DNA of 64,000 nucleotides, from the NCBI GenBank assembly GCA_040954595.2, contig CM082580.2, positions 6,145,519 to 6,209,518 on the forward strand, read 5' to 3'. Below, piece after piece: positions 2,534 to 64,000 of this stretch. A program made the translations under genes and the position numbers. Below the pieces are notes generated by a model. It did not search any database. It saw only the letters and a list, made by a program, of their open reading frames with translations, and was not told the origin of the DNA. Each line of letters opens with the position of its first letter. The first letter of the stretch is position 1. Source of the DNA: Balanoglossus misakiensis. Taxonomy: Eukaryota; Animalia; Hemichordata.

Positions 2534-3725
2534 ATGTATTCTAATAATTCTAACCAACCGGACAGATTTAATCGCCCCGGTCAACCGCCGTTGCTGCCAG
2601 GCCCAAGGTTCGGTAGCCCAACGTGGCGTCCGCAAAACAGGTAATTCAATTTCAGACCAAATGTGTACGACTTGCTTGGTCGGTTCTCTGTTGGTCATCT
2701 GAATGGGCCCATCAGAAAACTTTGCAAAAATTGTTTGTGGTGGGAGTTATATAAAAACAAAACGTTGGAGTCTGCATGACACTGACTGAATCACGTCATT
2801 ATTGTTGACATAATTTCAGATGTTCATTTCATTGCAATTTACATTCAACCATGGAGGTACTAGAGAGATTCAACCAACCATGTGTCGATAAACCTTTTAC
2901 TGTAAAACAAAATACATGAAAAAGAAGCAATGAATGGTGATGGTTCAACCATAGATAGTACTATCTATGGTTGAACATATCACGCGCAAATTTATTTTGA
3001 CATTTTTATAGTGAAGTTTTACAGTAATTTATGACCATTATAAGATGCAAATTATAGAAGAAACGTACGTGTAAGTAACAGATAAATGTATGCCAAACTT
3101 CAAAAACCTTTCCATCCCAACATATTGTACATTACGCAACTGCCATTTTTGCACAATATCACCATCTACTGTAATTTTTTTCTTTCTTTGACAGTCCCTT
3201 CCGTCCACACACACCGGGTAGATACAGTCCGCAACAACGAGGCTTTCATCACCAGCCACAGTTCGACCAGCGACCGCAGTCTGGGGGACCGCCCAGTCGC
3301 TTTCTACGTTTCGATTCCCCGCATTTCAGAGGCCATCATCATCACCACGGCGGTGGACACAGGGGGCGCCATTCACACAGGGTAGGGCAAGCCATGATTC
3401 TACACAGAGCGGAGACACGATGGAATTATTCAGTATTTTTATGCACGTAACTTCGCATGATGGTTTGAAAGACACCAATAGTTGTAAACCAGTTGGGTAT
3501 ACTCTTTCACTCAGCAACTGATACGTGTATTATGATACGTAATGTGGAGAGAAAAAAACATGCAAAATAATAACTTTCTTGTAGGGTAAACACCACCACC
3601 ACCATCATCACCATCACCACCAGCAACACAAAGGTGGCAACGTCGGCACACAATACTACAAAGAGTCAATGGTGAAGGACCCGTGGGCGGGGATGACTCC
3701 AATAAGCGTCGACAGTCAGAGGTAG
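2534..3725 (+). CDS. MPLKIP: M-phase-specific PLK1-interacting protein (TTDN1) ortholog, 144 aa; exons 2534-2640, 3195-3381, 3585-3725
   Basis: Three exons join in frame (435 nt): MYSNNSNQPDRFNRPGQPP...PFRPHTPGRYSPQQRGF...GK(H)10QQHKGGNVGTQYYKESMVKDPWAGMTPISVDSQR*. The C-terminal YYKESMVKDPWAGMTPISV matches the MPLKIP signature (YFKPSMLEDPWAGLEPVSV), and the N-terminus is P/G/R-rich. Confidence 0.88.
2943..2976. repeat. Perfect 34-bp palindrome in MPLKIP intron 1
   Basis: gttcaaccatagatagt|actatctatggttgaac. Confidence 0.85.
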
Positions 3726-29366: not shown

Positions 29367-32300
29367 ATGGCCGAAGTTTGGCTCCAGTGTGTGATGTTGG
29401 TGCTTGGCGTGTTTCTTCTGACGGGGGCAAAAGGTTAGTAGAAGAACGGCTGACTGCTGCTATCTTCCGTTGTGAAATCGTCTGCTGTCAGATTGTGTCG
29501 TAACACTGAACAGCTTGACATCAGGGCCGGAGGGTGTTATTTTGACACTTTTTGGTATCCCTTATCGACCAGGGCCAGTTGCAGTTTTGTAACAACCATA
29601 TATATCAAACTATGGATTAGATCAATGGTTGTTATAAACACCGAAACAAAGCTGACATGTGACATGTACAGTACATATGTACTGTACATGTCACATGTCA
29701 GCTTTGAATTTTTTTTCGCGCTGTCAATGTCATGAAATGAACAATCGCACGTATTCTGGCGAAGTCGTCAGTGAAACACAGAAGAAAACAAATGGTTACA
29801 TTTTTAAAGTTTTCGGTTAATTTCTCAACGTTAAGTCTGGATGCGAATGTGCAGAACAGTTCTACATTGACGCATGTGACGAGCGCTCGGTTGAAATTTA
29901 TCACAGTCCGAATATTTACACAATGTAGCACTTCATGCACTTGGTGGCTTTAAAATTTAATCATGTCTCTGTGTACACGTATCGTGTATTACATCTTTTG
30001 ACCGTCAACGCTATCGCCTCATCAGTATGTCACCTAAATTTTCGCACGGCACCGGGTACTCATTGATGTTGCAGAGCAATACAATGTCAAGTACATCAAT
30101 TGATTGATCAAACGCTTTCTTCCGCGCTATGGGTGTCACACTCCATCAATGTGAGCGCCTGCTGTGAATGGCTGAAAGTCCACTTTTGTTGGCTTCTCAG
30201 TTGTGTTTGCTCAAATGTTCAAAAAGGGACAATGATAAAAGATAGCAATTGTGTTGAGGGACAAAGACTGCTTCCAGACGTCGAAAGCGACTTGAACACT
30301 GCAACCAACAGGTGTTGTATTTAGTGTATAATTGTTCGCGCACTCGACCATCAATTATTCTGTCTGTATTACCACTTTTTGAAAAAAAGTGCTCTTGACT
30401 GTGCCGTCTACTCAAAATTTGGTCTACTCTCTCACGAAATTGACAGTGCATGACATTTTCACGAGTACATAACAACATTCTCAAACATTCAGCTGTAACC
30501 CAGTGTATACAAGTTAGAGTGTGAATAAAATACTGTGATGGCATGTGTATTTTATGCAGCTGTAGAAGTAGGTTAAATCCCACAGGAAAACAAAGAATTA
30601 CTATTGTGAACACCCCAAGTGCTAACCCGCCTTTCAAAACAAACTTCCCACTGTTAGTTTAACTGACAAAGGTAATGGAGTTTCACCCTGTATGTCAGCA
30701 GGGGATCAGGGCATGGCTCTGTTTGGCTTCTAGGTTTTCGATGGCTGCCTGCAAATTTGCATTTGGTGAAAGTTATTTCAGTTGAACCATGATTCATTAT
30801 GAATTTAAATGCCTGCTCTCATGTAGAATATATGGTCGTGCCTCTGCAAAAATTTACGTGACACCATTTCTGACTCGTATAAAGTGAAGTGAATATTTCA
30901 CACTGATCGTGATGAGCTGATGGAAGTTGTAAGCGCAGACACTTGGGCCAGCTCTTAGTATGTTTACATTGCACGCACCAGTAAAACATTTACTGTGAAA
31001 CTACATGGACATCTCGGTTCAAAACTTGATGTACGTGCGTCTGAGGCCTGGCTATAGCGATACTTGATATTTTGTGCAAAGATGGTGGTGTTTTCTCCAT
31101 TTGTCACCAAGGCAGCTTGTTGTTGAAACTGCCAGACAGTGCAATCAGATTAATGAACCCACAGGTGTTAGGGTGAAGATCGATAAGAGGATATCAAATG
31201 ATAGCAGAAAAGTATTCTGAAGGGATCGGTGTAAATTGATGTTTTTTAAAAGCATGCACAGACAAGAAGACTGTTCCTTTGAACATGCTGAGTATATTTG
31301 ATGTGTGGGCTTCTATTTGGCAAGTTCATGTCCGAATAACATCAGTAAAATATATGTTGAGATTATTGATGACTTAGCAGAGCTGGCCATGTTGACATTT
31401 TGTGAATAAACCCAGTGTATATTTCATGTAAGCTGACACCATATACATAGGGTCTGTGGAAACAGTTGACAAGTCAGTGTACCGTAGGACAAACCATTAA
31501 TTTCGCAGGGGTGTTTCTCAGCAAATTTCAGTGTGGTATGCAATTGCAATAGCATTGTCGAAAAAATGAGGTTACTAGTAAGAAAAGTAATTTGCATTTA
31601 TATTTTCCATCCAGGATAGTCATTTTTTGATATGATAATGTTATTGTTAGTGAAATTCTGGATTTCAGGTTTACTCAGTTGAGAGCACACATTCCACATA
31701 CCGGTAGAAGCCAATGTATAGAAAGTTATTTATTGACATGTTAGTGTGACACATCTCTACTTCAGTGAGGATAATTATGAGTTCTAAGCATCGCAACTGA
31801 TTCTTAAAATAACACGAGACTGTATGTGTATGCTATGATATCAAATAAAGGATGGGAAAAGCCGGCGTGTTTAGTTTGCCAAAGTGCCATTTCCACATCC
31901 AGGAAGACAAACCCTTCCTTGTGAGCCTTATCTCCACCAACCAAGCTTCATTTATTCAAGTAGACAATATTACATGATTTTTGCCATTTTTTCTCATGGT
32001 CCTAATTCTGCCTCCAACAAATAAATTTGTGGCCGACCCTAGTAATAGTATCTTGACCATTAGAAAACCATGGATACTAGAGAAAAATGTGTATTTATGG
32101 TACAGTAAACCTGTGTAAACCGAGCCCTGTCTTATCTGGACACCTGTCTATACCGAACACCTTTTCCAGTCCCTTTGACATAGAAACACAAGCCAAAAGA
32201 ACCTCGATAAACCAGACACCGCTGCAAACCAAACAATTTACCGTGTAACGTAGAATATTTTTTGCTGGTCTAGATTTTGAAGGTCACTGCTCTGCTGGAG

Positions 32301-35601: not shown

Positions 35602-38427
35602 CAAAACTCGGAAACTCGGTGGAGATATGTGGTGTGTTTATTATAAGGCCGAACCCACTCTGATGGTCAATTTACATGACTATAATAATGCCAGATCCCA
35701 GTGAAATCTGACCGTGGAATTAGTCAAATGGCAAACTGAAGTTGCTGGTAGATTGCTGATTTTAACTGCAGCCAGAAATGCAAGAGTCTCCCATTGGCTG
35801 GAGAGCCATTATATGGCCACAGCAGCCAATCAGATGTGTTGTTTCACGTCAAATTTACCAGATGTTTGAGTAAGTTACATACAATTGAAATTGTATCAAT
35901 GAATGTAAAATCTAAGAAATCTAATTTAAATTTACAAAACAGTCTAATTTTGAAACCTGTTTTATAGACATTGACATTTAACACTTTACTCTACATATTT
36001 ACAGAATAATTCGCCATGTGATGTGGCTACTATTTACCTGGTAAATGTTACACAAGAGATCATCCTATCTCTAGATGCCTTAGTTCAGAGGTTCTATAGA
36101 GAACATATTTCACACTTTTATTTGATAGGATAAAGTAGGAGTTTTTGACAAGAATATTTTGCCTAAGTTTCCATGGCTTTTTTTTTCCTTTATTCTTGCA
36201 AAATTCCAACTCAAAATGTTGTTTAAGGAATCTAAGTTGCTGCCAGTATTACATGTACTTGCGCATTATGTCGGTGCTGACCTTTGACCTATGATCCATT
36301 ATTGGATTTGGAAGAGCAACTGCTCCAAAGCCCTGATTATGATGTTGTTTGTCGCGCACCATGTCAGCATATAGTCTGCATGATTCAATTCAGCCCTGGT
36401 CAAATTTGCCTCCAAATCACATTTCGGACAAAAAACTACATCAAGCAGCTGAAATTGAAATGATAGTGCCTAGCTGGCACATTTGCATATGTGTTTGTTA
36501 CAAAACACAAGGAATTGAGTGCTCTCATTTAAAGCTCATTCCCCAGACAATCGAATATCCATGGAATTTTAATGTGTTTTAATTATTAAACTCATATTGA
36601 AAACTGCATGAGTCTTCAGAACATTCAAACCCATAGTTCAGGATATAAACATAAACATTAACATGCAACCATTGCATTGGTCTGTGGTCTTAACAAAAAT
36701 GATGGTATTTACCAAGGGAAGTCTGAATTTCAGTGTCGGTGCAAATTTCAGACCGAAATAGATTGTGGACTAAAAGAATGCATGACGTCCAGAGATAAGG
36801 TAAAAAAAAAATTCTTAAACATACAAGGAATAAAATGGATTGTGCGCAGGGGGAATTGAGTCGGGTCAGGGTAATTGTTAGCATTCCTCTGGATCAGTCG
36901 AGTTTCTGTCTGCAGCTGTTTTCCAAATCAACACATCGTGGCATTTCAAGAAATCTCAGTGGAGACATATGTGCACCTAAAGTGACCAGGGACATTTATT
37001 ATTTTTATTTTCAACTCGGTGACTAATTGAAAAAAAAAAATTATGAACTTGAAGAAACTGCTCGGCAAATTGGCGTTTTAAAAGAATCCTTTAAAAAGTT
37101 CCGACACTTTTGTAGTACATGCAGTGTACTCAAATGTGTGAACTGCAGTCCGCCAGTCAAGTTGTGCTTAGCTGTTCCATCAAAATACCTTAGCAACCGT
37201 GCCATCAGACGTCAGAAGCAGACATTAGGAGCCAAGGCGTAGTATTGCGATGCTATGCACCGTGTACTTGATATGATCCATTAGGAACGCATGGCTGAAT
37301 CTCTTATTTATGACAGTATGTCATTTCTGTGTTGTCATGGTAACCAACATTTTAAGTTAAAACAGACCAGTGGAAGTTCTGTAGGCTAAAAATTATAATG
37401 ATGTCTATAGAATCTTTGCTCTATAACTGGTGTATAGCAATATTAAAAGAAAAGGTTTCAAGACAACCAATGTTTCGAATTGCTAGCATGTTTTGGGTAC
37501 ATTTAAAAGGAATCAAACGTGCCCACGGAGACGTTGTGGAAATATTTTCATCATTCCAAAACCTCGTTTTAATATGCGTGTCGTCAAGAGTAGAAGGCGA
37601 CCCAGACTTTGTTTTCCATTAACATGCAGAGTGTTGCAAGCTTCTGAAATAAATATCACGTATGCCTTGGCCAGTCAGATGACCGAGAGCACGGACATTT
37701 CGGGTGGTGATGACTTTGACCTCGGACTCTGTGCAGATGATGAAGTAGCCCAATTTAAGTATCGTCCAGTGCACATGTGTGGTAGATCAACAACACTGCC
37801 CGTTTTTTTTTTTTTTGCACCAACTGGAAATCGTGACTGTAGCGGGGCGTGGAAACATTGCAGCCATACGTGTTTTGGCTTTTGTGTTTGCGTTGGTTAA
37901 GTGCTTCCAAATTCTTGAATTTCAGGGGTCAGATTCACAACAGAGAAGGGGGTGGTACAGTTTCAAGTCCCTGACTGGAGTGCGTGACTGAAATGTAGGG
38001 CAAGTGATTCAAGAGTTCCCATGTGTACTGTCCAGGTAAACATAAACTTCCAAGGAGATGATGTCCGCAAGGATCTCAGGACACATGGACTGGTCATGTT
38101 TGTTTGTTGACTTTGCAAAAATGTTTATTCTAATACTATAAATAAACCCAATGTAATGCCTCTCTCAGAAGTGCCAGATTAAGTTCATCACTTTCAAAAT
38201 GAACTGTATGTGGCCGAGTGAGGGCGCTGTTTCATTGTACCAGTTGGGAGCATCGCACAGTGGCAGTGCAGTCTCAACCGGGAGACTCAATGAGAAATTG
38301 GAACTCAAATGATGGTGTCAAGTGTTTTAATGGAGCTGGATGATGATACGAAAACTTGCAAAGCGACTTATTGAGACAAAAATCCTAAAGGTTTTGGTTT
38401 ATAGCAGCATGGACTGCTCTTTCTCTC

Positions 38428-38994
38428 GCCTACGGCCATACCACGTATTATTATACATCTAGTGCCGAGAACAATAGATTTTGGCGTGCAATAAAAAGCC
38501 GTACGGAACGGTACGTACGGAACGCGCGTTAAATAAGCCTTAGTTTCAAGGCGCCCCAAACTCACCGTGTACAGGTATGCGCTGTTATGCGAACGGTTTC
38601 AAGGCGCCCGCATTCCAACGCACGTGCGCACACGTAAACAAAAAAGAAAGATGGCTGCTCACTGAGCGGTTTTCGATCGATTGTATCGGCATTTTGGGCG
38701 TTTTGAAAGCCAAGTAACATGCAAAACAAGAACTATCGGAGATGTAAGATGTATAATAATAAGGTTATTACGAAAATACCGCAAAGTATGCACTCGGACA
38801 TTAGCGCAGCGCATCGCCCTCCGCTACGCGTCGGGCGATACTCAGCGCTAATGTCCTCGTGCATACTTTGTGGTATTTTCGTAATAACCTCATAGAATAC
38901 ACCGGTTCTCGTCCGATCACCGAAGTTAAGCTGCGTTGGGCGTGGTTAGTACTTGGATGGGTGACCGCCTGGGAATACCACGTGCCGTAGGCTT
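38428..38994 (+). pseudogene. 5S rRNA: 5S rRNA gene interrupted by an insertion (nt 1-18 at 38428-38445; nt 19-120 at 38893-38994)
   Basis: The joined halves give a canonical 120-nt metazoan 5S: GCCTACGGCCATACCACG+TAGAATACACCGGTTCTCGTCCGATCACCGAAGTTAAGC...GGATGGGTGACCGCCTGGGAATACCACGTGCCGTAGGCTT. Helix I is perfectly complementary. There is a TATA-like TTTATAG at about -30 and a T-run terminator downstream. Confidence 0.93.
38446..38892. mobile_element. Non-autonomous element with asymmetric inverted repeat and 129-bp terminal hairpin, inserted in the 5S gene
   Basis: A 15-bp IR tattattatacatct (38446-38460) / agatgtataataata (38747-38761) is followed by a long imperfect palindrome at 38762-38890. 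TA is present at both junctions. Confidence 0.85.
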
Positions 38995-39010
38995 TATCTT
39001 TTTTTTTTTT
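38995..39010 (+). terminator. Pol III oligo-T terminator of the 5S gene
   Basis: A long T run begins a few nt after the 5S 3' end. Confidence 0.7.
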
Positions 39011-42000: not shown

Positions 42001-43255
42001 AATGTATATTTTGCAGAGAAAAATGAGGATTCGAATGATTTAAACTGCTTTTCGACCACTGTCTTCCTTACGGTTAGTCTGGCCGCCACCACCACCACCA
42101 CCACCACCTATCTACCATCTGACAGTTATGAATTGAAGAACATTGATTACCCATAGAACATTTTATTAATTACTGCAGAACTACCAAAACATCGTGGTCA
42201 TCAAACCCTTCGAAGCCAACAGAAACAAGGACTCGTCAAATAAAGCAACATCCTTTTATTTCATGCCTATCAGTTATACTGTCTCCTAACCCATCAGCAA
42301 GGGCAAAATTTGAACGCAATAAAAACTAATCAAAACATCTGTCGTTTCACACGAAATGCAAAATGCATTACTTATTTTTATGTACTACCTGAGCGCGTAA
42401 AATGCCATCAGGACAATAACCAGCGATTGAACCAAACGACTGTGTACTCTGATGAACGATTTCCACTATATTTGACAGAAAAATTGACTCGTTCAAGTGG
42501 TGCTTTCCTTCAGAACGGCTCATTTGCCGCCGATAAATCGTCTGCTGACCCGTCACCATATTTGTTTATCCAGTCACGTGATGTACTCGGCGTCCGACAC
42601 CATTCCGATATCCCAATATTAATCTTCCACTCACTCACAGGCAGACGAATTCTCGATATGGCAAATGCCAGAAATGACAACTCGAATTAGCCTCAGCCGG
42701 GGACGAGAACACAATTATCTCGTTTGTTGAATCCAATGTCTGGTAGCAGTGCTATTATACTGTGTAAGCAGGAACTGTGTAATGATGGTATAATCTTTAC
42801 CAATCGCGTGCATTACCATTAGAATGGACGAACCGTACACACCAATGAACAAACGTTGCGACCCGAGGGACGGTGGATATCATATGGAGAATGCGTGGAT
42901 TTTTAGGAAGTGTCTCTACCGAATTGTCTTAACCGTAAAATTAGGCGATTTTTTCCCCACGCCATTTTTTTCAGCGGAGGTTTCAGAGTATAAAATACAC
43001 TTTCAGCATGTCTCCTTGAGCCAGTTATTTTGAAATCTTAACATTTTTTGTGCGCTATTACTTGTGTTTTGATTCCAACCTTAATTTAAAGACTTGCGCA
43101 TTGATGGGGCAATCTGGAGGGGCTTGCCACCCCCCCCCCGAACTCTTTGCTCTTACAAATCTTGGACCACGTTACTGTTTTCCTGACAGAGGAAAACGCA
43201 TCTCTGTTTTGGGGGCAATGTTGTCACTGCGCATGCGGCTAAACGGGCTGTGCTC

Positions 43256-43681
43256 TAGTCTCGGTTACCCAGAGCCCTCTGCTTCTTCCGTTAGGCACTC
43301 CAGAAAGAGGGTCTGGGGAAACCCGGTAGACAAACCGTCAGGCGGAATCGGGACAGCTGCGATGCATGACGGGAGATTAATATTCGATACGATATTATGG
43401 TATGTCGATATTAGAAAACTATTTACCGAACTTCTCTCTCTCTTTTCAATTTGTATACAGTTTTAGCAGGTCTAGCACTTCTCAGCATGTTTTCTTTATC
43501 GTATGTCATACATGTCGGCCGTGGGTTCGCGCGCAGGACGTCGCCATTTTGGAATATTAATCTCCCGTCATGCATCGCAGCTGTCCCGATTCCGCCTGAC
43601 GGTTTGTCTACCGGGTTTCCCCAGACCCTCTTTCTGGAGTGCCTAACGGAAGAAGCAGAGGGCTCTGGGTAACCGAGACTA
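43256..43681. mobile_element. Young non-autonomous DNA transposon, 130-bp TIRs, 9-bp TSD (AcademH-like termini)
   Basis: TIRs at 43256-43385 and 43552-43681 read as exact reverse complements (TAGTCTCGG...CCGAGACTA). GCTGTGCTC is duplicated on both sides. The superfamily is inferred from TAG termini plus the 9-bp TSD. Confidence 0.9.
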
Positions 43682-45528
43682 GCTGTGCTCATAACCTCAA
43701 AAATGTCCCGAAAATAAGACACATACATGTTGCTAGAACATTCGGAGTGCATCTGAAAAAAACATGATATGAACCATGCACCTACTCATCGTATCGCCCT
43801 CAAGTACTAGGCAAATATGTTGGCCCCTGTTAGTTTTACAAAAAAATCCTTTGAAAAGACAACACACTGTTTTACACACACCGGACCACTGTAAGCAAAA
43901 ACCGACTCATATTTATCTGACAGGAGAATAAAAAGACAGGGAGAATGAATGGGTCCGTGTGGGCATCGATTTCCATTACCGGCTAAACGTTGCAACGTCT
44001 CGGTTTAATATCAATTTTGAATTATTATATTTAGTCTCTCAACATTTACTTTATACAACAAAGACACCGCCGACGATGTTGACTAAATTAACATGACGCG
44101 GCACAAGTGGGCTCGGTGTCCGATTGGTTTACTTTAATTAGGCTGCAGTTTAACATCTCAGAGAAGTGACATGGGTTTTCTTTTTTCGTCTACTGGGCAG
44201 GCCTAAAAGCGATCCGGATACACGAAAGAATGGACTGTGTGCCGCCTTTGTTGTCCGGTTGCAGGTATGAAAGAAGCCAATCAAATTTCCATTAGACTCT
44301 GTTGAAATTAGACATACCGAATTGGACACAATTATACAACACACCACGCAATCATACCACATGACGTTACATTTTGGAATTATGTCACATTCTGATCGAC
44401 ACTGACTCACACCAGAACATGTACTGTCAAAAACTGCACCACTTTACAGAATGTGTCATAAACTAATTAAACGGGCTCTGACTTCTGACAAAACAATAGT
44501 CTCCAGACACCCATCACACGTTCTATGTCACCAGATCGTGTGTACGTAATCTAACTGATTTCAAAGCGCGTTTGAACCGTATCCTCCGTCCCTTTCTTAC
44601 GTATTTGCATGGAGGCAGCCATATTTGAGTTCGGCACCAGTTATTATTTATCTTGTCCAACTTTGCACATCCATTACGATTTAGTGGTTAACAATGTTTA
44701 AACACACATTCATGAAATAGTCTTAGATTAAACACGGTTATCTAGTAACCCTGGTTTAATGAAAAAATGCCAAAAAAATGCAGCTCGTGGGCCTTTAACA
44801 TTTTATTCCCTCCAATAACTCCCCGCACACAGTATTTTCGATTTCCAGTCTTAGGAAGAACCGATCCATACCCTTGCGACCGATTCTCTGAATGTCACAC
44901 ACGATTACTGTTATTTGTTGAAAACGTCGTGGCGATGTACAGCAATTACGCCAGATATGGTGCCCCGCATCCCAGTCTCCATGGGGACGCCATGCTGTCC
45001 TCCGGGGTAAAATAGACTTCCACGCCAAACTTGCAGTGGGTGTATATAGATTTGCGTCGTGGTGATGCTTAAAATCGATTCAGAAGGCGGGTTGCAGAAT
45101 CATTGGGAACACAGTGACCCAGATGGAGAAAGCAAAAAAGTCGAACTTTATTCCGTTTTACAATGAAAACGGATTGAGATGCATAGAAGGATTGTACAGA
45201 CCATCGTTTTTTTCCGATCAAGACAGTAAAAATCTGTCATCGGCTCTTTCTCCGAGCTTCACTTCTCTATGTACAAAATGACAAAGACTAAATATGATAT
45301 CTGGATCGTTTGTGCTCATTACATTGATAAACTTAATAAATGAAAGTTTGGCTCTAAAACAGATATGTCATGTGCGTGCGCTGACCTGACCCTGCGGCCA
45401 AACAAGCTACCCTGGATATGTTCAATGTGGCGACCAAGGCCGCAATCCACAAATCCGCCACATTAGTGACATAGAGATCATAGCATTGACAGGGCTTTGA
45501 TGCTAAATGCTTTTGTCCTACAGACAAA

Positions 45529-46637
45529 GGCATTCTTATCGAAGCATCAGACAATTATTCGAAGAGCTTTACAGTCATTACCAAGGTTTGGAGAGGCAAA
45601 TCCACAATCAAAAGCTAATCCAATATAAACCGGCCATTTCCTTCTTGTGATTGGCGACTTGTAAGGCTGCATTCACAAACACCTCTGGAGGGGGGGGGGG
45701 GGGCGGGAGAATTCAATTTTTTTTACCGTTAATTTTCACATGCCCCCCTCAACAACCCGAAATATTTTCAAATCCCCCCCTTCCGAACTGCTAAAATTTT
45801 CAAATCCCCCCCCCCATTTTCTTTCACACAGCAAAACACATCACCTATCTATCTTGTAAAAAAGGAAAACTGCGCTACCATGAAAAGAATTTGAAACTGA
45901 TGTTTCCCCTTATCAGTGGATATTAAAACAGAACATTGTTTCTATTTGTTAAGTATTTTGTATTCTGTGTTGGAAGACATTGTAAACCGAGAATTGAAGG
46001 GGGTGGGTTTGGGAGGGGGTGTCCCCCTCGCACGTAAGAAAATTTTATAAAATACAGAGCTCAAAGCTGCATTTTAATGAACCCGGCAAAAGCAAATTAA
46101 CTCAACTACCGGTATGTTGGGGAGGACAAATTTAATCGTCGCCGCTCAAAGTTATCATGGGGTGGGGGCAAGTCCCATGACCTGGGACACTAGATAAACC
46201 AGTCTATGATTGAAAGGTGTTGATGAATGGAGGGGGTGGGGGTGGGAGGGGGTGTCCCCCTCCCACATGAGAAAATTTTGTAAAATTAAGGGCGCGAAAC
46301 TGCATTTTTGTGGACTCAAAATAAATATTTAGTCCTCAAAGTTTTCAAGTCCCCCCCTTTCAGTCCCTAAATTATTTCAAATCCCCCCCTTACATACCCT
46401 CAATTTTTTCAAATCCCCCCCCTCAATTCTCCTGCCCCCCCCCCTCCAGAGGTGTTTGTGAATGCAGCCTAAAACGGGTATTAGGATGTACAATATACGT
46501 GCAATTTAGGACAAGAAACCGTATCGACTCCGATACACATTACTGGTGGTCAAAATGGTTACCTACAGTTTTTATTTTCATCTTTGTGCATTTGTAAAGC
46601 TCTTCGGATAATTGTCTGATGCATCGATGAGAATGCC
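45529..46637. mobile_element. Older TIR element (45-bp TIRs, degenerate 9-bp TSD; MULE-like) hosting a nested MITE
   Basis: ggcattcttatcgaagcatcagacaattattcgaagagctttaca (45529-45573) versus its inverse at 46593-46637, three mismatches. Flanks are acagacaaa / acacacaac. Confidence 0.7.
45665..46469. mobile_element. PIF/Harbinger-type MITE with TAA target duplication
   Basis: TAA-GGCTGCATTCACAAACACCTCTGGAGGGGG...CCCCCTCCAGAGGTGTTTGTGAATGCAGCC-TAA. It has subterminal tttcaaatccccccc repeats and two internal gggagggggtgtccccctc blocks. Confidence 0.85.
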
Positions 46638-46779
46638 ACACACAACCCATCCATCGTAACACTGCGTTCCAGATATGGGACGGCGACCCATTTCAGTAGA
46701 AACATGATCTAAGCTTATGTTCCGAATGTGCACCTATGCATGGAGGGACCGTGACCCTCCACACATACACACTTCACCC

Positions 46780-46871
46780 TAGTCTCGGTTACCCAGACCC
46801 CCCTGCTTCTTCCGTTGGGCAGAAAGGAGTGCCCAACGGAAGAAGCAGGGGGGTCTGGGTAACCGAGACTA
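46780..46871. mobile_element. 92-bp hairpin MITE of the same TAGTCTCGG family as 43256-43681
   Basis: It is a near-perfect palindrome, TAGTCTCGGTTACCCAGACC...GGTCTGGGTAACCGAGACTA. The 9-bp TSD is acttcaccc/acttcactc (one mismatch). Confidence 0.88.
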
Positions 46872-46896
46872 ACTTCACTCACGTTTATTTATAGTC

Positions 46897-49926: not shown

Positions 49927-50092
49927 ATACTTACCTGGCACAGGGGTTAACCATGATCACGAACGTGGTTCCCCCAGAATGAGGCCCGCGCATTGCACTT
50001 CGCGCGGGTTGATATGTCTGCGATCACCCCAAATGTGGGTGACTCGGGTGCATAATTTATGGTAGTGGGGGACTGCGTTCGCGCTATCCCCT
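49927..50092 (+). ncRNA. RNU1: U1 spliceosomal snRNA
   Basis: It starts ATACTTACCTGG and has loop I GATCACGAA, loop II CATTGCACTT, the Sm site AATTTATGG and stem IV GGGGGACTGCGTTCGCGCTATCCCC. A 3'-box-like ttcaaaattaga lies downstream. Confidence 0.95.
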
Positions 50093-50247
50093 CATTTTCA
50101 AATTCAAAATTAGAACTAGATTAGTCGCGTGATGTTTTTTGTCTCTTAAACCTATAAGACTCGGAGATTATGAAATAATATTAATGAAGCCCATAGGCTT
50201 AGGAAGGGATGACTGTTTGGCCGCGTGTATATGCACAGATACAACCA

Positions 50248-62400: not shown

Positions 62401-63512
62401 AGAAAGAGGAGAGAAAGAAGGGAAGTTAACGCTGTCGCCAGCCGATCGTCTGCGTCACTTTCAATATGGCGTCAGGCGGGTGACAACCAAATAAGTGACG
62501 TGTAATAATAGCGGGTATTTTTGACAAAATGAGACTACGGTGAAAGGAATAGCCGAGAGGAACACGTCAGCTTGTGGTCTAATGAGCTGTTCGAGAAAGC
62601 CACAGCCGATATGCAAGCCTTGCGGGTGAGAATTAAAATTGAAAGCTGTCAAGACACTTCAGCCCCTTAATGTCCCAATTATACACTTTTCAATCGGTGA
62701 ACTCTGACCCCGTAGCAAGCAGCCTCGTTACAGCCATTCTTGTCCCATATTACACTTACAATGGCAACTGTGCGGCTCGATTCTCAATTCATCTGTGCCA
62801 TCTTCTCAAACCGCATTTCTCTTAATCAGAATACGGCAATATACTGTATGAATAATTTATGTGTAACCAGCTCGAGGTTTCGAAACGGCACAAATGCTTC
62901 TCATGAAAGCAACCGCCATTTCACAGAACCTGGCTCGGTCCCAGAACAAAGGTTCGGAGACTACTATACCGCCAACCTTTGAAAAACGTTCCACAGAAAT
63001 ATTCAACAGCTGCTAGCTGCCGCACTATACGGTGCAGTCAAATTTCCTTTGCGAAAATTAAAAAGGGGCGGATGATTTCTGGGGGACAAATACGGCACCA
63101 AGGATATCCGGCACAATAGTTCCAACTCCAAGTGAAACAATGAAGGGATACACTCTATAGGACGTTCCACCAATCACGTTACGCGGAACTATAACTAGAC
63201 CGCCAATTTGTTCCGAGCGCTTCAGTTTTTTTATGACATTCACCAAAATCGATTGTCTGGAGTTAACAAAACGACACTGATCTGCAGCTATAGTTACCGC
63301 GCAGACACCCATTAAAGATAACGGCCTTTCCAGGTGCTTTGTGCAAGGAAATTGCACCGTTTACCCTTAAAACTAACAATTTTCGGGGGTCGAGTAAAGC
63401 AAAAATTTTAAGATTCGATGTCGGCTATAAGCCACGTCTCGATTGCATGCGTTAGTCTACTGTGTGAATTCAATGTAAATTGGCGTTGATTTTCCACGGG
63501 AACTGAGTAATA

Positions 63513-63565
63513 CTACGGCGTTTTACCATAAAAACATACTATGTTTTTATGGTAAAACGCCGTAG
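63513..63565. repeat. 53-bp palindrome (26-bp arms, 1-nt centre)
   Basis: ctacggcgttttaccataaaaacata-c-tatgtttttatggtaaaacgccgtag. Confidence 0.9.
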
Positions 63566-64000
63566 AATTTACTAGACCTGCCCGACACAATCCCTACAAA
63601 TATTTGTCCTAGTGAGTACATGTACATATCTCTCGGATTCAACGCAAATCAGACAGCGTGCACCGCGCGTAGTCTAGCGCCACCATATTTTTGTTGACCT
63701 CAAGACAGGACAGTCGTGTTTTGCTGTCGGCCGCGAGGATCACCCCTGACCACACATCCCTGTCCTGTGTTTCACAAAATAACCGTCTGTGTTTTGTCAT
63801 CGCTCTGGAACGGGCGACTCCCTTGTGATCTACCACCCGGGCGTAATTCAAACACAACAGACCACCGCCGTGTAATTTCGGGGACAACTTTTGAGTTGTT
63901 TGGCTTTCGGGGTGGGATAATGGGGCTCTGGCCTGTAAAAGTCTTACGTTATTCCCAACTTTTCCTGATAAAACCTATTAACCCTTAACCTCGGAACCTC

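What the first reader, a model, noticed from the sequence alone, without database searches (positions are those of the whole stretch)
38428..38994. Otherwise intact 5S rRNA gene split at nt 18-20 by a ~447-bp structured element
Seen: both 5S halves look undecayed, with a perfect helix I, intact box A and box C, an upstream TATA-like element and a terminator. Removing 38446-38892 restores exactly 120 nt, with a TA dinucleotide at both junctions. Known: some mobile elements target multicopy RNA genes specifically (R2 and Pokey in 28S, Dada in snRNA/tRNA genes). Inference: this is a recent insertion and may represent an element that targets 5S rDNA, or excises precisely from it. A single copy cannot distinguish targeting from chance insertion at a TA.
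Basis: partly seen in the sequence, partly recalled or inferred. Interest (0 to 1): 0.8.

Follow-up and report, generated by a model that had tools for sequence, protein, structure and literature searches.

The report
Crypton-type hairpin element splits 5S gene
A 447-base jumping DNA element, very abundant elsewhere in this animal's genome, sits inside one lone 5S ribosomal RNA gene, likely by chance rather than by targeting, and its hairpin end suggests it is likely moved by a Crypton-type recombinase that may act on one folded DNA strand.

Summary
A 5S gene (38428-38994) is split after nt 20 by a 447-bp insert with TA at both junctions, and the rejoined gene folds canonically. Targeting of 5S is not supported. 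In public runs the insert has roughly 150 to several thousand times the depth of the flank. All 7 listed contigs that reach an element end continue into non-5S DNA. The abundant intact 5S form has TC, not TA, at this site. The insert is one gene-less element with a 135-nt terminal palindrome. Its minus strand has two tandem G.A mismatches and a G-T-A loop, and next to the stem lies an inverted copy of its own joined ends. The same design occurs in unrelated metagenome contigs, one of which carries the first exon of a tyrosine recombinase. Best reading: a non-autonomous Crypton-type element inserted by chance, probably recently, at a TA in a solitary 5S variant; movement as a folded single strand is inferred. 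No partner enzyme could be sought in this genome. The scan noted this end design earlier on other DNA, including this genome.

The parts
38400..38403 (+). TATA-like box 25-28 nt upstream of the 5S start
   Evidence: sequence; function untested
38428..38447 (+). 5S rRNA gene, nt 1-20, ending in the TA at which the element sits
38446..38894 (-). Non-autonomous element, 447 bp plus one TA (TA at both ends); oriented on the minus strand if the hairpin end is taken as 5', as in L001
   Evidence: other copies end at 38445/38446 and 38894/38895
38759..38893 (-). 135-nt terminal palindrome, 57 Watson-Crick pairs; on the minus strand tandem G.A/A.G mismatches at 38858-57/38794-95 and 38832-31/38820-21 and a G-T-A triloop at 38827-38825
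38747..38781 (+). Internal inverted copy of the joined element ends: 15 nt mirror 38446-38460, the rest is the hairpin's inner arm mirroring the right end; 2 nt of the joined ends have no partner
38446..38460 (+). Far end of the element, perfectly complementary to 38747-38761
38461..38746 (.). Gene-less body with two short direct repeats (38500/38514, 11 nt; 38543/38596, 14 nt)
   Evidence: no stop-to-stop frame of 85 aa or more overlaps it
38895..38994 (+). 5S rRNA gene, nt 21-120
   Evidence: Rfam RF00001, 84.4 bits; fold
38999..39010 (+). T12 run, Pol III terminator-like
   Evidence: sequence; function untested

Best explanation
The insert is one copy of a very abundant, gene-less DNA element that likely belongs to the Crypton (tyrosine-recombinase) transposons and likely landed by chance, probably recently, at a TA in a solitary 5S gene variant. 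Shown: boundaries, very high abundance, non-5S flanks of other copies, the end design, and the same design on a recombinase-bearing element from another organism. [quoted passage not shown] Inferred with less confidence (about 0.45): the substrate is the folded minus strand, in which the joined ends pair with their internal mirror copy beside the G.A-studded hairpin, like an integron attC site. The interrupted 5S copy is likely dead and tolerated because many intact copies exist.
For: depth: flank X1 30-79, X2 95-130; insert X1 11,937-113,890, X2 88,716-491,441; 5S 3' piece X2 1,442-2,380, so in X2 the insert exceeds 5S about 37- to 200-fold. table 8: 7 of the 24 listed pieces reach an element end and all 7 continue for 140-1505 letters that do not fit 5S (about 5 distinct contexts). 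Five of them also cross the body/hairpin boundary at 38760, so the 447 bp is one family. table 5c: intact 5S with C between 38446 and 38895 at depth 10,403 (X1) and 1,052 (X2). End design. Of 123 cap-pattern hits in metagenomes, 12 of 25 low-GC hits and 0 of 98 high-GC hits have stems of 30 pairs or more. A mirrored far end of 11 nt or more was found in 6 of 9 long hairpins with room downstream (4 families) against 2 of 23 short-stem hits. Of 11 further 2x2 loops, 6 are GA/GA and none TC/TC. L001 has cap, GA/GA loop and mirror 65 nt from the loop, as in the window, and encodes a 68-aa exon with 243 relatives at E<=0.001. Of 26 long relatives tested, 13 match Phage_integrase PF00589 at E<=0.01 (8 above cut-off) and 2 more match only an integrase N-terminal domain. 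Short direct repeats of Cryptons are described as target microhomology (PMC13465315, passages).
Against: No recombinase gene lies in the element or among 67 of 129 window frames tested, and no genome is held to look for a partner. The recombinase link rests on one foreign contig that shares the cap and layout, not the arm sequence. Published animal Cryptons are described as lacking terminal repeats, and fungal and oomycete ones as having 4-6-bp repeats; here the repeat is 2 bp (PMC3212892, passages). Summed contig depth is no copy number by the tool's own caveat; in X1 the 5S 3' piece (33,078) is of the same order as the insert. One of the 7 contigs (X2 record 16) lies wholly in the palindrome, so its extra letters may be the body of a sister family. 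No listed contig bridges the 5S junctions. 11 of the 26 relatives had no integrase match, and a word-based homologue search with L001 found nothing.
Confidence: 0.75

Rival explanations
1. The family, or a sub-lineage, prefers this site in 5S genes, like Dada-5S or Mutsu.
For: A clean hit in a small, intact gene; 5S targeting exists (Dada-5S, PMC8869645 passages; Mutsu in a table of PMC10946416). 1270 contig pieces and 210 loose ends were not shown.
Against: 7 of 7 listed end-reaching contigs have non-5S flanks; the abundant 5S form is intact and has TC here; in X2 the element far exceeds 5S in depth. Dada makes 6-7-bp duplications, and the Dada-5S target is elsewhere in the gene.
Confidence: 0.07
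2. It is a Helentron/HINE-type rolling-circle element with sub-terminal inverted repeats and an end hairpin.
For: An asymmetric 15-nt inverted repeat plus a terminal hairpin resembles HINEs (PMC4067079 passages); an earlier scan note reports Helentrons in this genome (unchecked).
Against: HINE palindromes are 5-10 bp and the elements are flanked by T runs at TT targets. Here the palindrome is 135 nt and both flanks are TA. The same cap occurs on a tyrosine-recombinase-bearing element.
Confidence: 0.07
3. Two nested TA-inserting MITEs (Tc1/mariner type): one with 15-bp TIRs at 38446-38761 and one palindrome at 38759-38894.
For: TA occurs at 38446, 38760 and 38893; each half has inverted ends.
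Against: Five listed contigs from other copies cross 38760 in register, two at depth 702 and 2,271; the same mirror-beside-hairpin layout recurs in four unrelated families.
Confidence: 0.04
4. An assembly chimera joined a 5S gene to an abundant repeat.
For: No listed contig bridges either junction; X1 has no depth at 38384-38415 (the tool says a hole proves nothing).
Against: Both junctions fall on the element's true ends, and the 5S halves rejoin to the base, which a chimera would rarely do; the upstream flank is single-copy and matches X1 record 3 exactly.
Confidence: 0.04
5. The insert is removed precisely (as DNA or RNA), so that this gene still yields 5S rRNA.
For: Excision leaving one TA would restore the gene; tyrosine recombinases can excise cleanly (established knowledge).
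Against: No joint skipping exactly the insert with TA kept is among the 15 of 16 joints listed (contigs drop rare variants). No splice or ribozyme signature: the only Rfam match here is 5S.
Confidence: 0.03

Closest known systems
Animal Cryptons (CryptonA/CryptonI) and their non-autonomous derivatives; Kojima and Jurka 2011, PMC3212892 (passages); Eulor5/6 and salmon Crypton-N1, PMC5753468 (passages)
   Same: Gene-less, very abundant, no true terminal inverted repeats, short repeat at the junctions; the end design is shared with an element carrying a tyrosine-recombinase exon (L001).
   Different: The passages read report no terminal repeats in animal Cryptons and mention no hairpin or mirrored junction; the repeat here is 2 bp, not 4-6; no partner shown in this genome.
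DIRS-1 internal complementary region; PMC7192593 (passages)
   Same: [quoted passage not shown]
   Different: No reverse transcriptase, no long terminal repeats; the mirror here is about 35 nt, not 88, and is fused to a 135-nt palindrome.
Integron attC sites; PMC2727003 (abstract and outline only)
   Same: Imperfect hairpin with strand-specific unpaired bases, read by a tyrosine recombinase on one folded strand.
   Different: Bacterial and tested biochemically; here only the architecture is seen, and the mismatches are tandem G.A pairs.
Dada-5S (DDE) and Mutsu (Tx1 LINE), 5S-targeting elements; PMC8869645, PMC10946416 (passages)
   Same: An element inside a 5S gene.
   Different: Those are target-specific; Dada has 6-7-bp duplications and another site. 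This family is dispersed.
Helentron/HINE (DINE-1); PMC4067079 (passages)
   Same: Asymmetric inverted repeat of 12-15 nt and an end hairpin.
   Different: Hairpin 135 nt rather than 5-10 bp; TA flanks rather than T runs.

Membership tests
Crypton | Tyrosine recombinase encoded by the element or by an autonomous partner with the same ends | tested here: inconclusive
   None in the element; no genome to search; a foreign element with the same cap and layout carries a recombinase exon
Crypton | No terminal inverted repeats | tested here: met
   Left and right ends do not mirror each other; the inverted copy lies 133 nt inside
Crypton | Short direct repeat at both ends reflecting target homology (4-6 bp in fungi and oomycetes; none reported in animals) | tested here: inconclusive
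   2-bp TA at both ends and at the mirrored junction
Crypton | Abundant non-autonomous copies | tested here: met
   Depth 150 to several thousand times the flank
Crypton | Circular intermediate | not testable with these tools
   A joint from 38841 back to 38447 exists at depth 38 and 67 (table 5c), which fits a tandem or nested copy and does not show a circle
Dada (Dada-5S) | 6-7-bp target duplication | tested here: not met
   Only TA is repeated; definition
Dada (Dada-5S) | Copies confined to one site of the RNA gene | tested here: not met
   7 of 7 listed end-reaching contigs have non-5S flanks; published site differs
Helentron/HINE | 12-15-bp sub-terminal inverted repeats | tested here: inconclusive
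   15-nt pair present, but one copy is terminal and the other 133 nt from the end, against 2-4 and 38-60 nt
Helentron/HINE | 5-10-bp end palindrome and T-run flanks | tested here: not met
   135-nt palindrome, TA flanks
Tc1/mariner MITE | TA duplication | tested here: met
   (definition recalled)
Tc1/mariner MITE | Inverted repeats at both termini | tested here: not met

The most novel reading that the evidence does not exclude
Animal Crypton transposons move as one folded DNA strand: the joined ends pair with a DIRS-like internal mirror beside a G.A-studded hairpin, forming an attC-like site that the recombinase crosses with a host TA. This copy, inserted at single-base precision into a gene whose sequence is known, with a probable empty allele on the other chromosome, would be a ready-made donor-target pair to test it. 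A bolder add-on, that a sub-lineage homes to A20-type 5S genes, is about 0.07 likely.
Probability: 0.4. Interest if true: 0.75.

Novelty: new variant of a known kind. Interest (0 to 1): 0.38.

Why it matters
As a 5S story it is minor: one spare gene copy likely knocked out by an abundant element. Such cases are seldom reported; a 2024 review says it knows of no insertion within the 5S gene, though its own table lists Mutsu 'into 5S' (PMC10946416, passages). The interest lies in the element's ends. If the folded-strand reading is right, a widespread group of animal transposons uses a route known from bacterial integrons, which would explain why their ends were hard to define and would offer a structure-guided recombinase system.

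Tried and rejected
No genome is held, so no genome-wide copy or flank count. Self-BLAST found no second copy of the element or of 5S in the window. No RNA holder listed. A 21-letter cap pattern gave 0 hits in viral contigs. A word-based search of longer proteins with L001:285-581 scored 0 of 114 candidates; the query included read-through past the probable exon end, and the trimmed 68 aa worked. Pfam on 7 frames from the hairpin loci gave nothing above cut-off. The Atlas gave mostly unnamed clusters and one set with Phage_int_SAM_1 on 10% of members, a lead only. A sequence look-up in earlier findings found no look-alike, and nothing is noted nearby. My first reading of two nested elements was dropped. 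The reads were laid only on 38000-38935, so 5S variants further 3' and the downstream flank were not examined.

Full report
Setting. The window is animal genomic DNA with exons of a kinase gene whose translation looks CDK12/13-like (my recognition; Pkinase E 0.008), a BAMBI-domain exon and an otopetrin gene, one U1 gene and one 5S match. Earlier scan notes call the organism a likely acorn worm; I did not test that. No whole genome is held.

Observation. The 5S gene starts at 38428. Its first 20 nt end in TA, and the rest runs from 38895 to 38994, followed by a T12 run. Removing 447 nt restores 120 nt that fold into the 5S shape with a 9-bp helix I and an 8-bp helix II. The 3' piece matches RF00001 at 84.4 bits.

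Anatomy of the insert. It has no reading frame of 85 aa or more. The first 15 nt are mirrored perfectly at 38747-38761, which 0 of 2000 shuffles reach. A 135-nt palindrome follows directly and runs to the right end (z about -17 on both strands). The two strands fold with similar computed energy, but only the minus strand turns the two 2x2 loops into tandem G.A/A.G pairs and the tip into a G-T-A triloop. That such loops are stable in single-stranded DNA is recalled, not tested. Taken together, 38747-38781 is an inverted copy of the right end joined to the left end, less 2 nt. I looked for the G.A loops and the mirror after reading earlier scan notes, then tested them here.

Abundance and flanks. 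Three runs of one sample hold the region, so they are not independent and may be the source of the assembly. Laid on 38000-38935, the flank has depth 30-79 in X1 and 95-130 in X2, while the insert has 11,937-113,890 and 88,716-491,441. Summed depth is not a copy number, but the gap is two to three orders of magnitude. Of 24 listed pieces, 7 reach an element end (X1 6 and 8; X2 10, 12, 14 and 16; X3 23). They stop at 38446 or at 38894-38895 and continue for 140-1505 letters that do not fit 5S, reading record coordinates in reverse for minus-strand pieces. They represent about five contexts, since X1 6/X2 12 and X1 8/X2 14 look like the same copies; X2 16 is ambiguous because it lies within the palindrome. 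Five cross the body/hairpin boundary, so the insert is a single family. None of the 24 bridges a 5S junction, and 1270 were not shown.

The target. The abundant intact 5S form has C, not A, at nt 20 (depth 10,403 in X1 and 1,052 in X2), and another 5S copy has a different upstream flank (tables 5c and 7). In the window copy A20 pairs with U58, so the TA is likely native to a 5S variant; I could not read nt 58 of the abundant form. X2 record 9 carries the second haplotype's variants, aligns to 38447 and then has 10 letters that do not fit the insert. This fits an empty allele, hence a heterozygous and recent insertion, but the letters were not shown. A rough estimate with assumed numbers (about 190 5S copies from the X1 depth ratio, 0.5-1 Gb genome, 1000 copies) gives 0.02-0.05 chance hits in 5S for this family alone. 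That is low, but not remarkable across many such families and a scan of this size.

What kind of element. Long stems occur in 12 of 25 low-GC hits and 0 of 98 high-GC hits. Their arms are unrelated to the window's, yet 6 of 11 additional 2x2 loops are GA/GA, and 6 of 9 with room downstream have a mirrored far end 65-73 nt from the loop, against 2 of 23 short-stem controls. Those six belong to four families, so they are not six independent cases. One, L001, contains a 68-aa frame ending at a GT donor-like site. Its relatives number 243 at E<=0.001. Among 26 long relatives, picked by length from the 150 listed, 13 match Phage_integrase and 2 more its N-terminal domain; the five printed look like eukaryotic Crypton recombinases by my recall. 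So this end design goes with a tyrosine recombinase in at least one element.

Mechanism. Most likely an autonomous Crypton supplies the recombinase, the ends are joined, and the junction is crossed with a host TA, leaving TA on both sides. This matches the account of Crypton repeats as microhomology (PMC13465315, passages) and of DIRS integration (PMC7192593, passages). The strand-specific mismatches and the mirror suggest a folded single-strand substrate, as in integron attC (PMC2727003, abstract). That step is inference from architecture only.

Literature. Searches listed no paper whose title or abstract start describes hairpin-plus-mirror ends for Cryptons or a Crypton in a 5S gene. Passages of PMC3212892 say that no terminal repeats were found in animal Cryptons. 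Repbase entries and reports, subscription reviews and all supplements were not seen and may describe these ends. Targeting of 5S by Dada-5S and Mutsu is known.

Verdict. Real feature; chance insertion of a Crypton-type non-autonomous element (0.75); 5S targeting unlikely (0.07). The end design is a variant not found in the papers I read, and the scan had noted it before on other DNA. Interest 0.38.

Noticed in passing
window 49927-50093 +: Full-length U1 snRNA gene (143.8 bits) about 11 kb from the solitary 5S gene.
   Followed up: no
window 43255-43682 and 46779-46874: Element with 131-bp perfect terminal inverted repeats and a 92-bp palindromic relative with the same ends.
   Followed up: no
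window 45529-46637: Element with 45-bp inverted ends and internal 32-bp tandem repeats in both orientations.
   Followed up: no
window 2943-2976, 29647-29706, 63509-63569: Three short near-perfect palindromes (34, 60 and 61 bp).
   Followed up: no
window 38446-38447 with 38932: The window's 5S has A20 paired with U58 while the abundant 5S form has C20, so at least two 5S sequence types likely coexist.
   Followed up: partly
window 38893-38895: About half of the listed copies match one base beyond the TA (G at 38895), a weak hint of a target word longer than TA.
   Followed up: no
L026 1-1873; L017: Two unrelated hairpin families abut far end to far end in L026, and in L017 and L026 one family has its own far-end sequence directly before the hairpin, a head-to-tail junction that differs from the internal mirror by a few bases.
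   Followed up: partly
L003 768-786: The same hairpin cap occurs in a 3.3-kb contig with a Rep-like frame (my recognition), without a long stem.
   Followed up: no
run X2, window 38072-38075 and 38913: Contigs start and stop at GATC and one has four letters put in at a GATC, signs of a proximity-ligation library that may bias depth.
   Followed up: no
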